From the NCBI RefSeq assembly GCF_048403405.1, contig NZ_CP183129.1: a stretch of 64,000 bases of DNA; one strand, given 5' to 3'. A program made the position numbers and the translations under genes. Of the stretch, positions 41,547 through 42,026 are shown one piece after another. Each line of letters begins with the position of its first letter. Position 1 is the first letter of the stretch. Source of the DNA: Escherichia coli. Its GTDB lineage: Bacteria; Pseudomonadota; Gammaproteobacteria; Enterobacterales; Enterobacteriaceae. Below the pieces are notes generated by a model that saw only the letters and a program-made list of their open reading frames with translations, did not search any database and was not told the DNA's origin.

Positions 41547-41587
41547 TTTGCGAGGCGTTTTCCAGATATGATGTAACAGTTGCAGTT
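41547..41587. repeat. Copy A of a 41-bp duplicated element (TTTTGCGAGGCGTTTTCCAGA-N13-TTGCAGTT)
   Basis: Direct repeat of the element at 41985-42026; conserved 21-bp and 8-bp blocks around a variable 13-bp core. Confidence 0.7.
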
Positions 41588-41671
41588 ATTATAAGTTCAA
41601 GTAAAACAGCCTTGTATTAATACCAGAATAAGGGCATCTGTTTTTTTATATTCAAGAATGAAAAATTTTTG

Positions 41672-41890
41672 TCATTCCTTATGCTCCTTACACTGATCAT
41701 CAACACCAACTACCTCCCCCTTTTGCCTGCCTCCCTTTGCTTTACGCACCGGGAATTGCTGACGTTCCAGATATTGCTCTACCGCTTCGCGTAAAATTGC
41801 AGATCGTGAAACCTTACGCCAGCCCCGAAGCTTGTTCAGCCGTTTAATTGCCTCTTCTGATAAATGAAGAAAAACCGTATTCATCGCCAT
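41672..41890 (-). CDS. yiiE: CopG/ribbon-helix-helix family small regulator (72 aa), YiiE/YiiF-type; which K-12 paralog it is cannot be decided here
   Basis: Translation from MAMNTVFLHLSEEAIKRLNKLRGWRKVSRSAILREAVEQYLERQQF... has the RHH beta-strand/helix pattern; lies between fdhE and yiiD. Confidence 0.7.
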   Translation of the reverse strand: MAMNTVFLHLSEEAIKRLNKLRGWRKVSRSAILREAVEQYLERQQFPVRKAKGGRQKGEVVGVDDQCKEHKE

Positions 41891-41984
41891 TACCAATACC
41901 TTACATATATTACTCATTAATGTATGTGCGAAAATTACGCCGGAAAATCATTTAAAAAAAGCGGATTTTTGCATGTTGTTTTGT

Positions 41985-42026
41985 TTTTGCGAGACGTTTT
42001 CCAGAAATAATAAGAGCGTTGCAGTT
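41985..42026. repeat. Copy B of the 41-bp duplicated element (TTTTGCGAGACGTTTTCCAGA-N13-TTGCAGTT), upstream of the CopG-like gene
   Basis: Direct repeat of 41547-41587. Confidence 0.7.

What the first reader, a model, noticed from the sequence alone, without database searches (positions are those of the whole stretch)
41547..42026. Single CopG-like gene flanked by a duplicated 41-bp element where K-12 has two paralogs
K-12 carries two adjacent 72-aa RHH genes (yiiE and yiiF) between yiiD and fdhE, but only one is present here. It is flanked by direct repeats, TTTTGCGAG[G/A]CGTTTTCCAGA-N13-TTGCAGTT, at 41547-41587 and 41985-42026. This fits homologous recombination between repeated intergenic units deleting one paralog, or a cassette-like unit. 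Read on the minus strand, each copy contains CTGGAAAACG[C/T]CTCGCAA, a GG-N10-GC arrangement loosely resembling a sigma-54 -24/-12 element. That last point is speculative.
Basis: inference. Interest (0 to 1): 0.4.

Follow-up and report, generated by a model that had tools for sequence, protein, structure and literature searches.

The report
Orphan upstream element of deleted yiiF
The two short repeats around the single CopG-like gene are copies of a strongly conserved 21-base control-region motif that sits in front of each gene of an old duplicated antitoxin pair; here one gene of the pair has been deleted and its motif left behind, which is a common and ordinary E. coli variant and not a sigma-54 promoter or a repeat-driven deletion.

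Summary
A 45-nt direct repeat lies at 41546-41590 and 41985-42029 (36/45 identical, core 20/21; 0 of 300 shuffles reach this). It brackets the only RHH gene in the window, yiiE (41672-41890, minus), which is identical to K-12 YiiE.

K-12 and every two-gene strain examined also have exactly two copies, one about 92-94 nt upstream of each gene. So the repeats are not deletion endpoints. The missing gene is yiiF.

In other Enterobacteriaceae, yiiF is vapB, the antitoxin of an intact vapBC pair (PIN toxin; PDB 7BY2) in the same fabY-fdhE slot. E. coli keeps only vapC debris. The window still encodes the last 17 VapC residues (41494-41545).

The yiiE-only haplotype arose by a microhomology deletion running from the motif's edge into vapC. 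It occurs in 678 of 5,426 complete E. coli genomes and in E. whittamii, and it retains five vapC codons that two-gene strains have lost.

The 21-mer TCTGGAAA-N4/5-CTCGCAAAA is a strong phylogenetic footprint (1.72 versus about 0.55 bits per position). It is probably a protein-binding regulatory site. It fails a sigma-54 matrix test and is absent from published sigma-54 maps. Interest is low to moderate.

The parts
40528..41457 (+). fdhE, the conserved flanking gene that anchors the locus
   Evidence: ORF list; annotated fdhE in the identical strain TUM14771
41494..41545 (-). 3' remnant of the lost toxin gene vapC: last 17 codons plus stop (..NTRDFAGIAGVVIPYQL*). It includes the 16 bp (CCGCTATTCCCGCAAA, codons FAGIA) that two-gene E. 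coli strains lack.
   Evidence: tblastn with Citrobacter VapC gives window 41553..41497, 63% identity over 19 aa; the first two aligned codons lie in the motif (E=8e-4, E=2.5e-4 against the whole window). Junction read base by base.
41545..41546 (.). Deletion junction: motif 3' edge (gene orientation ...CCTCGCAAAA) joined to vapC ...TACGAGAGAT. Roughly 454 bp (proximal promoter, yiiF, vapC debris) present in two-gene strains is absent here.
   Evidence: blastn against K-12, L003 and L004; sequence comparison
41546..41566 (-). Orphan copy of the 21-nt core motif (gene orientation TCTGGAAAACGCCTCGCAAAA), the one that precedes yiiF/vapB in other genomes
   Evidence: Identical 21/21 to both K-12 copies; orthologous to the motif at a fixed position upstream of vapB in 17 other species
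41546..41671 (-). Surviving distal part of the yiiF upstream region (between the yiiE stop codon and the motif). It contains repeat copy 1 (41546-41590).
   Evidence: Window 42287..41546 aligns colinearly to K-12 L001 2914..3635 at 95%; present in 4,832 of 5,426 E. coli genomes
41672..41890 (-). yiiE, 72-aa ribbon-helix-helix (CopG/RHH_1) protein. It is the Escherichia-specific paralog of vapB/yiiF and the only RHH gene in the window.
   Evidence: present in 5,394 of 5,426 genomes
41985..42005 (-). Core motif copy upstream of yiiE (TCTGGAAAACGTCTCGCAAAA). Its single difference falls in the variable spacer. Its end is 94 nt from the yiiE ATG.
41985..42029 (-). Repeat copy 2 (45 nt), part of the duplicated yiiE promoter region. 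Homology to the yiiF unit continues at 53-65% for about 45 nt upstream and 54 nt downstream of the motif.

Best explanation
SHOWN. The region between fdhE and fabY is a decaying toxin-antitoxin locus. In most Enterobacteriaceae it holds an intact vapB-vapC operon (RHH antitoxin plus PIN toxin). Escherichia duplicated a unit made of the upstream region plus vapB, giving yiiE (the new copy) and yiiF (the vapB orthologue), and lost vapC. The 'flanking repeats' are the best-preserved stretch of the two duplicated upstream regions, one in front of each gene.

In this window's haplotype, a microhomology (illegitimate) deletion removed the yiiF proximal promoter, yiiF itself and most vapC debris. It ran from the 3' edge of the motif to vapC codon ~108. 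That left the yiiF motif as an orphan lying between yiiE and fdhE. This haplotype is old and common: 12.5% of complete E. coli genomes, and also E. whittamii. It is not derived from today's two-gene haplotype, because it keeps five vapC codons that the two-gene strains have lost.

INFERRED. The 21-nt core, TCTGGAAA-N4/5-CTCGCAAAA, is a protein-binding cis-regulatory site of the vapB-type control region. It lies about 70 nt upstream of a conserved TGATATACT (-10-like) block. My leading candidate for the binding factor is the VapB-family RHH protein or its complex, acting at a distal operator (about 35-40%). Second is an unidentified host regulator shared by all copies (about 30%). The orphan copy would then be a leftover site with no gene to control.
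For: Two motif copies, one per gene, in K-12, O157 and other two-gene strains; colinear alignment shows yiiE survives here.

Junction sequence and microhomology.

vapC intact directly after the yiiF orthologue, with overlapping stop and start codons, in about 25 species. PIN domain PF01850 E=4e-18. PDB 7BY2 pairs the YiiF-type 'CopG family regulator' chain with 'Ribonuclease VapC', E=5.6e-63.

vapC fragments in E. coli, with the FAGIA codons present only in the yiiE-only haplotype.

Census: yiiE in 5,394, yiiF in 4,738, and the yiiE-only junction in 678 of 5,426 genomes. The same architecture occurs in E. whittamii L010.

K-12 yiiE versus yiiF upstream regions: 100% identity in the motif, 65% over +21..+74 and 53% over -45..-1, against a null 99th percentile of 41-48%.

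Across 17 non-Escherichia species the motif ends at a fixed -115/-116 from the short-form ATG and carries 1.72 bits per position, against 0.52/0.57 in the flanks. Variation is concentrated in a 4-5 nt spacer.
Against: No transcription start site, binding or expression data were available, so the regulatory role rests on conservation alone.

The simple sigma-70 scan finds no canonical two-hexamer promoter in the gene direction in the window, K-12 or Citrobacter. The promoter position, and therefore the motif's distance from it, is an inference.

Against the RHH-operator version: toxin-antitoxin operators usually overlap the core promoter; YiiE and YiiF differ in the N-terminal beta-strand residues (NTVFLHL versus GRILLDL) yet share an identical 21-mer in K-12; and a third copy precedes an unrelated RelE/NadS module.

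Breakpoints of two independent rearrangements lie within 0-7 nt of the motif's 3' edge, which a purely regulatory site does not predict.
Confidence: 0.6

Rival explanations
1. One reading: homologous recombination between the two repeated intergenic units deleted one paralog.
For: The repeats are real direct repeats with the same period (439 bp) as the K-12 gene pair (start-to-start spacing 460 bp).
Against: Both copies pre-exist in two-gene genomes, upstream of each gene, with none downstream of yiiF. Recombination between them would remove yiiE and leave one copy, whereas the window keeps yiiE and both copies. The real junction pairs the motif edge with vapC sequence through 2-4 nt of microhomology.
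Confidence: 0.03
2. Each motif copy is a sigma-54 (-24/-12) promoter driving the downstream small gene.
For: GG-N10-GC spacing is exact. Across genera the conserved blocks (TGG......GCA) and the variable 4-5 nt spacer mimic the information profile of sigma-54 sites. Weak genuine sites such as CTGGAACGCTTTTCGCA look similar.
Against: A matrix from 135 ChIP-seq sites gives 4.9-7.2 bits for the E. coli copies (rank 97-222 among the window's 128k positions) and -0.3 to 9.5 for other genera. All fall below the 5th percentile of real sites, 9.77. C. koseri has GT in place of the near-invariant GC. No peak is listed at either K-12 copy in the high- or low-stringency ChIP-seq lists or in RpoN genomic SELEX. 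The control site in fdoI is recovered as the top hit.
Confidence: 0.04
3. The 21-mer is a recombination hot spot or att-like core at which small toxin-antitoxin modules are gained, duplicated and lost, building a tandem array (motif-RelE/NadS, motif-yiiE, motif-yiiF/vapC).
For: In E. coli L005-L007, Pseudocitrobacter L031 and K. spallanzanii L034, a RelE/NadS segment sits exactly between two motif copies. The outer flanks match the left and right flanks of the single copy in Citrobacter, and the two copies share only 21-28 nt. The window's deletion starts 0 nt from the motif edge. Copies within one genome share species-specific variants. Plasmid RelE/NadS relatives lack the motif, so it is not cargo of that module.
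Against: No integrase or recombinase gene lies in any examined locus. The motif has no dyad symmetry. yiiE/yiiF homology extends about 120 nt around the motif, as expected from ordinary tandem duplication. Strong cross-genus conservation of the single-copy motif needs an in-place function anyway. Other insertions in the locus (DUF6708 in ST131, the 617-aa ORF here) are not at the motif. The breakpoint clustering rests on two events and was noticed post hoc.
Confidence: 0.12
4. The similarity is only decaying duplication homology kept alike by gene conversion, with no function of its own.
For: Within-genome copies resemble each other more than they resemble copies in other genomes, as gene conversion would produce.
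Against: Single-copy genera have no conversion partner, yet they keep the 21-mer at 1.72 bits per position while the flanks are near saturation at 0.5-0.6 bits. Substitutions concentrate in the spacer.
Confidence: 0.08

Closest known systems
VapBC type II toxin-antitoxin system of Klebsiella (solved complex, PDB 7BY2/7BY3)
   Same: YiiF is the orthologue of its RHH antitoxin chain. The K. pneumoniae locus L038 has the same fabY-vapB-vapC-fdhE synteny and the same upstream 21-mer.
   Different: E. coli has lost vapC apart from fragments. This window has also lost vapB/yiiF, keeping only the paralog yiiE, the orphan motif and 17 vapC codons.
E. coli K-12 yiiE/yiiF (YiiF NMR structure 2K5J), annotated as putative CopG-family regulators of unknown function
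   Same: yiiE here is 100% identical to K-12 YiiE at the protein level. The motif copies are 20/21 and 21/21 identical to the K-12 copies.
   Different: yiiF is absent here. I found no paper in the searched library that describes yiiE/yiiF as vapB-derived orphan antitoxins or describes the motif.
Sigma-54 -24/-12 promoters
   Same: TGG-N9-(T/C)GCA geometry and a variable spacer.
   Different: A instead of C at two -24-region positions and C instead of T at -14. Matrix scores fall below nearly all bound sites. No binding appears in published K-12 maps.
Orphan antitoxins and decayed chromosomal toxin-antitoxin loci (general phenomenon)
   Same: Toxin gene eroded by internal deletions, antitoxin retained and duplicated, presence/absence polymorphism within the species.
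   Different: Here a distal upstream element is conserved far better than the genes' own flanks, and it persists after its gene is gone.
Integron attC or phage att cores flanking inserted cassettes
   Same: A short identical sequence bounds an inserted gene module (RelE/NadS) in several genera.
   Different: There is no nearby integrase, no inverted-repeat architecture and only 21-28 nt of shared sequence. The element is also conserved as a single copy where nothing is inserted.

Membership tests
Ribbon-helix-helix CopG family (Pfam RHH_1, PF01402) | Significant match to the RHH_1 profile across the N-terminal beta-strand and two helices | tested here: met
   YiiE residues 6-43, E=1.6e-11; PDB relatives 7by2_A and 2k5j_A
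VapBC type II toxin-antitoxin module | Antitoxin gene immediately followed by, and usually overlapping, a PIN-domain toxin gene | tested here: not met
   Met in orthologous loci of about 25 other species (L016 vapB 2983-3231, vapC 3225-3605). In the window only 17 terminal vapC codons remain and no PIN ORF exists. So the window holds a remnant, not a member.
VapBC type II toxin-antitoxin module | Toxin is a PIN-domain ribonuclease | tested here: met
   For the Citrobacter orthologue: PF01850 E=4.2e-18 and 7by2_B 'Ribonuclease VapC' E=5.6e-63
VapBC type II toxin-antitoxin module | Antitoxin neutralises the toxin and the complex autoregulates the operon at an operator | not testable with these tools
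   Co-crystal entry 7BY2 implies complex formation. No operator data were found in the searched library.
Sigma-54 promoter | GG and GC dinucleotides separated by 10 nt | tested here: met
   CTGGAAAACG[C/T]CTCGCA in both copies
Sigma-54 promoter | Overall match within the range of experimentally bound sites | tested here: not met
   4.9-7.2 bits against a 5th percentile of 9.77 and a median of 13.9 for 135 sites; other genera -0.3 to 9.5
Sigma-54 promoter | Occupancy by sigma-54 holoenzyme in vivo or in vitro | tested here: not met
   Literature check only. No entry for yiiE/yiiF or their coordinates in ChIP-seq tables and supplements (PMC4591121) or in genomic SELEX (PMC8743547). These data are for K-12, which has identical cores.
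Repeat-mediated (homologous) deletion | Deletion endpoints lie in the two repeat copies, leaving a single hybrid copy | tested here: not met
   Both copies are retained. The endpoints are the motif edge and vapC codon ~108.
Site-specific recombination (att-type) site | Identical core sequence at both ends of an inserted segment, with outer flanks matching the empty site | tested here: met
   RelE/NadS segment in L031, L034 and L005 compared with the empty site in Citrobacter L016. Not applicable to the window itself, which lacks that segment.
Site-specific recombination (att-type) site | Associated recombinase gene and recombinase-binding inverted repeats in the core | tested here: not met
   No integrase or recombinase appears among annotated or predicted genes of the loci. 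By inspection, the 21-mer has no dyad symmetry.

The most novel reading that the evidence does not exclude
The conserved 21-mer TCTGGAAA-N4/5-CTCGCAAAA is not only a regulatory site. It is also a recombination-prone boundary at which small toxin-antitoxin modules are inserted, duplicated and excised in the fabY-fdhE interval of Enterobacteriaceae. That would amount to an integrase-less, cassette-like array, of which the window shows one excision product.
Probability: 0.1. Interest if true: 0.6.

Novelty: new member of a known kind. Interest (0 to 1): 0.27.

Why it matters
It turns two unannotated-function K-12 genes into something interpretable. yiiF is the orphaned antitoxin of a vapBC system that is intact, and structurally solved, in Klebsiella and Citrobacter. 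yiiE is its Escherichia-specific duplicate.

The 'single-gene' state is one of two old haplotypes that together appear to cover nearly all E. coli.

It also flags a sharply conserved 21-bp element of unknown function that outlives its gene and marks module boundaries. That makes it a cheap target for footprinting and reporter assays.

For the genome scan itself, it shows that a plausible-looking sigma-54 match and a 'repeat-mediated deletion' story both fail when checked.

Tried and rejected
1. Sigma-54 promoter. I built a matrix from the 135 published ChIP-seq 17-mers, scored all copies and orthologues, and checked two genome-wide data sets. Rejected.

2. Mobile copies of the yiiE unit elsewhere in the genome or on plasmids. 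The 'extra places' are the same locus interrupted by a DUF6708 insertion in ST131, and the 'plasmid' records carry chromosomal genes.

3. The motif as intrinsic cargo of RelE/NadS modules. Four plasmid-borne relatives have their own palindromic operators and no motif.

4. A known RNA family. Rfam finds nothing at E<=1 in 41300-42700.

5. A canonical sigma-70 promoter at or near the motif. The simple scan finds none in the gene direction in the window, K-12 or Citrobacter. My reading of the motif's reverse strand as a divergent promoter also gave poor -10 candidates (inspection only).

6. From memory, I compared the 21-mer with consensus sites of LexA, CRP, FNR, PurR, Cra, NtrC, MarA/SoxS, IHF, Fis and OmpR-family regulators. 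None was convincing. This was not a formal test.

7. Literature on yiiE/yiiF. Only passing mentions exist (for example yiiF listed under the 'transcription termination' expression set, PMC9308461). The Klebsiella VapBC structure paper is not in the searchable library.

8. The 617-aa neighbouring ORF. No Pfam or PDB sequence match.

Full report
OBSERVATION. The repeat finder gives 41546-41590 and 41985-42029, 45 nt, 80% identical, 439 nt apart. The 21-nt core matches 20/21. Neither 20/21 nor 36/45 is reached in any of 300 dinucleotide-preserving shuffles of the 1.1-kb region, where the maxima were 18 and 29. Between the copies lies one ribbon-helix-helix gene, 41672-41890 on the minus strand. 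It is 72 aa long, matches Pfam RHH_1 at E=1.6e-11, and is identical to K-12 YiiE. The window is the reverse complement of the K-12 arrangement fabY(yiiD)-yiiE-yiiF-fdhE. It is 100% identical over 1.2 kb to E. coli TUM14771.

WHICH GENE SURVIVED, AND WHERE THE REPEATS LIE IN K-12. Window 42287..41546 aligns colinearly, at 95%, to K-12 from upstream of yiiE to just upstream of yiiF. Window 41520..41307 aligns to the fdhE 3' end. So yiiE survives and yiiF is missing. K-12 also has exactly two copies of the core, both TCTGGAAAACGCCTCGCAAAA in gene orientation. One ends 94 nt before the yiiE ATG. The other ends 92 nt before the long-form yiiF ATG (116 nt before the short form). O157-type and other two-gene strains have the same layout, with no copy between yiiF and fdhE. 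The repeats are therefore the upstream regions of the two paralogs, not scars of the deletion. Recombination between them would remove yiiE, which is the opposite of what is seen.

THE UNITS ARE A DIVERGED TANDEM DUPLICATION. Anchored on the motif without gaps, the K-12 yiiE and yiiF upstream regions are 100% identical in the 21-mer, 65% over the next 54 nt and 53% over the preceding 45 nt. The 99th percentile of the null is 41-48% (alignment). The proteins are about 40% identical. So the whole control region was duplicated with the gene, and the 21-mer has been held constant while the rest drifted.

WHAT yiiF IS. A scan of one genome per species returned 35 loci. In Citrobacter, Salmonella diarizonae, Klebsiella, Trabulsiella, Franconibacter, Kluyvera, Lelliottia, Pseudocitrobacter, Kosakonia and Cedecea, a single yiiF-type gene is present. 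It sits in the syntenic fabY/fdhE neighbourhood, with fdhE adjacent in all of these genera except Cedecea. yiiE-type genes occur only in Escherichia sequences. In those genera the yiiF orthologue is followed, with overlapping stop and start codons, by a 126-aa ORF. That ORF is a PIN domain (PF01850, E=4.2e-18) and matches 'Ribonuclease VapC' of PDB 7BY2 at E=5.6e-63. The other chain of the same entry, 'CopG family transcriptional regulator', is the best structural relative of YiiE/YiiF. Distant YiiF relatives on Burkholderia and Rhizobium plasmids are also annotated next to VapC toxins. So yiiF is vapB, the antitoxin of a vapBC pair.

E. COLI KEEPS ONLY vapC DEBRIS. Some two-gene strains retain codons ~9-29, and all those examined retain codons 104-126 with a five-codon gap (LEVVTRNTRD-----GVVTPYEL). 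The yiiE-only haplotype retains ...NTRDFAGIAGVV(I/T)PY(Q/E)L*, including those five codons. In the window this tail occupies 41494-41545, and it explains the 'extra 16 bp' seen at the junction.

THE DELETION. In gene orientation the window reads ...CGCCTCGCAAAA|TACGAGAGATTTTGCG.... This is the 3' edge of the motif fused to vapC codon ~108. Only 2-4 nt are shared between the parental sequences (...CTCGCAAAAATAA... and ...ACGCGGAATACG...). That is illegitimate, microhomology-type joining.

The same junction occurs in strains that are only 91-95% identical to the window (APEC 102026 and FDAARGOS_1372), and the same yiiE-only architecture is found in E. whittamii. Because this haplotype keeps vapC codons that all examined two-gene strains lack, it cannot descend from the present two-gene haplotype. 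Both must come from an older ancestor with a more complete vapBC.

Census of 5,426 complete E. coli genomes: yiiE in 5,394, yiiF in 4,738 (87.3%), and the yiiE-only junction in 678 (12.5%). If the last two sets are disjoint, which I did not check genome by genome, they cover 5,416 genomes.

THE MOTIF IS A PHYLOGENETIC FOOTPRINT. Upstream of vapB in 17 non-Escherichia species, the 21-mer (consensus TCTGGAAAGCGGCTCGCAAAA) ends 115-116 nt before the short-form ATG in ten of the eleven species whose spacing was printed. It carries 1.72 bits per position, against 0.52 and 0.57 in the adjoining 60 and 55 nt. Conservation is bipartite: TCTGGAAA and CTCGCAAAA are nearly fixed, and the 4-5 nt between them vary. 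The one difference between the window's two copies falls in that spacer.

Other conserved islands are a TGATATACT block 43 nt before the short ATG, which looks like an extended -10, and the palindrome ATATAC-N5-GTATAT spanning it and the ribosome-binding site. The latter is the more conventional place for an antitoxin operator. The simple two-hexamer scan finds no canonical promoter in the gene direction, so promoter placement is an inference.

SIGMA-54 TESTED. I built a matrix from the 135 bound 17-mers of Bonocora et al. 2015 (PMC4591121). Leave-one-out scores of the true sites have a minimum of 5.4, a 5th percentile of 9.8 and a median of 13.9. The motif copies score 4.9 and 7.2, ranking 222nd and 97th among the window's 128k positions. 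The known intragenic fdoI site (IS47) is the top hit at 40049-40065 with 17.7 bits. Orthologous motifs score -0.3 to 9.5, and C. koseri has GT instead of GC. Neither K-12 copy, searched by gene name or by U00096.2 coordinate, appears in the paper's tables or supplements, nor in the RpoN genomic SELEX list (PMC8743547). The geometry is sigma-54-like, but the evidence is against it.

A THIRD COPY, AND THE CASSETTE-LIKE PATTERN. In E. coli strains that carry an alpha/beta-hydrolase gene and a RelE-family toxin/NadS pair next to fabY, a third copy (TCTGGAAAGCGCCTCGCAAAT) precedes the RelE/NadS operon. Pseudocitrobacter and K. spallanzanii have the same layout. Flank comparison shows the following:
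- The upstream flank of the first copy equals the upstream flank of the single copy in Citrobacter.
- The downstream flank of the second copy equals Citrobacter's downstream flank.
- The two copies share only the motif itself, 21-28 nt.

So the RelE/NadS segment lies exactly between two motif copies. Plasmid RelE/NadS relatives lack the motif, so the module does not bring it along. Together with the window's deletion, which starts at the motif edge, this suggests the motif might be recombination-prone. Against that, there is no recombinase nearby, the motif has no dyad symmetry, other insertions in the locus are not at the motif, and only two events are counted. I keep this as the minority 'novel' reading.

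MECHANISM, WITH STATUS. Shown: the duplication, the vapBC ancestry, the identity of the lost gene, the junction, the population frequencies and the conservation of the motif. Inferred: that the 21-mer is a protein-binding regulatory site.

Candidate binders:
- The VapB-family RHH proteins. The VapB N-terminus is nearly invariant across genera, so a conserved DNA target must exist, and the motif contains GGAAA and GCAAA 12 nt apart.
- An unidentified host factor. This is favoured by the identical 21-mer in front of YiiE and YiiF despite different beta-strand residues, and by the copy in front of RelE/NadS.

In the window, the copy at 41985-42005 would still serve yiiE. The copy at 41546-41566 is an orphan pointing at the 3' end of fdhE.

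VERDICT. What is there is an ordinary, common haplotype of a decayed toxin-antitoxin locus. The modestly interesting by-product is a sharply conserved 21-bp element of unknown function.

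Noticed in passing
window 41927-41943 (minus strand): A much better sigma-54-like 17-mer, CCGGCGTAATTTTCGCA (13.0 bits, 4th best of 128k positions in the window). It lies 37 nt upstream of the yiiE ATG and outside the repeat. K-12 has the same sequence, yet no sigma-54 peak is reported there. The yiiF upstream region lacks it.
   Followed up: partly
window 40049-40065 (plus strand, inside fdoI): The published intragenic sigma-54 binding site IS47 (CTGGCGCGAATTCTGCA) is present unchanged and is the top matrix hit in the window (17.7 bits). 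It served as the positive control.
   Followed up: yes
window 42586-44439 (minus strand): A 617-aa ORF with no Pfam domain and no PDB sequence relative. It contains GCKSAKDRT, which resembles a CX5R phosphatase active-site loop (recollection of SopB/IpgD-type motifs, not tested). The near-identical strain TUM14771 annotates this span as a 'transposase' plus a pseudogene fragment, and O157 annotates it as two hypothetical proteins. This segment replaces the sequence K-12 has beyond window 42287.
   Followed up: partly
L016 2800-2815 (Citrobacter youngae) and the same position in Salmonella, Klebsiella, Kluyvera, Franconibacter and other loci: A LexA-box-like palindrome CTGTATGGATATACAG (CTG-N10-CAG). 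It lies 16 nt upstream of the divergent alpha/beta-hydrolase start codon and about 55 nt from the motif, and is conserved across genera. The E. coli equivalents are degenerate (CTGGTATTAATACAAG in K-12; CTGGATGGATACAG with two bases missing in L005). This suggests SOS control of the hydrolase and/or vapBC in other genera.
   Followed up: partly
L005 3596-4339; L031 1725-2890; L034 1398-2891: A RelE/HigB-2-like toxin (103 aa) plus a NadS antitoxin is bracketed by two copies of the 21-mer in three genera; in L031 and L034 a 70-aa ORF lies between NadS and the second copy. Copies within one genome share species-specific variants (GCAGAA in L031, TATGG in L034).
   Followed up: partly
window 41530-41552: A perfect 8-bp inverted repeat, CGCAAAAT-N7-ATTTTGCG, spans the deletion junction. 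The vapC tail codons (..GAT TTT GCG..) happen to be the reverse complement of the motif's CGCAAAAT end. It may be coincidence, or it may be relevant to how the deletion formed.
   Followed up: no
L007 3209-4822 (E. coli ST131): ST131/B2-type strains carry a two-gene insertion (DUF6708 protein plus a hypothetical) between the yiiF upstream region and yiiE. Their yiiE-side motif has drifted in its first block (CTTTGGATGC[C/A]GTCTCGCAAAA).
   Followed up: no
L009, L012, L039; records NZ_CP170376.1, CP061233.1, CP125156.1, NZ_OL790696.1: Public records appear to be mislabelled. Contigs titled Bacillus coahuilensis and Robinsoniella sp. carry E. coli yiiE-yiiF DNA. A 'Chryseobacterium' contig carries a Citrobacter-like fabY-vapBC-fdhE locus. 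Several 'plasmid' records (169 kb to 5.4 Mb) match these chromosomal genes, and the one inspected (NZ_CP170376.1) carries the chromosomal fdo-fabY gene order.
   Followed up: no
L034 2983-3294 (K. spallanzanii): This is an independent decay route. Most of vapC is deleted in frame, fusing vapB to the last 20 VapC codons (…KLREEWYERVTRNTKDFARIPGVMTPYYL). L025 and L039 also carry truncated vapC.
   Followed up: no
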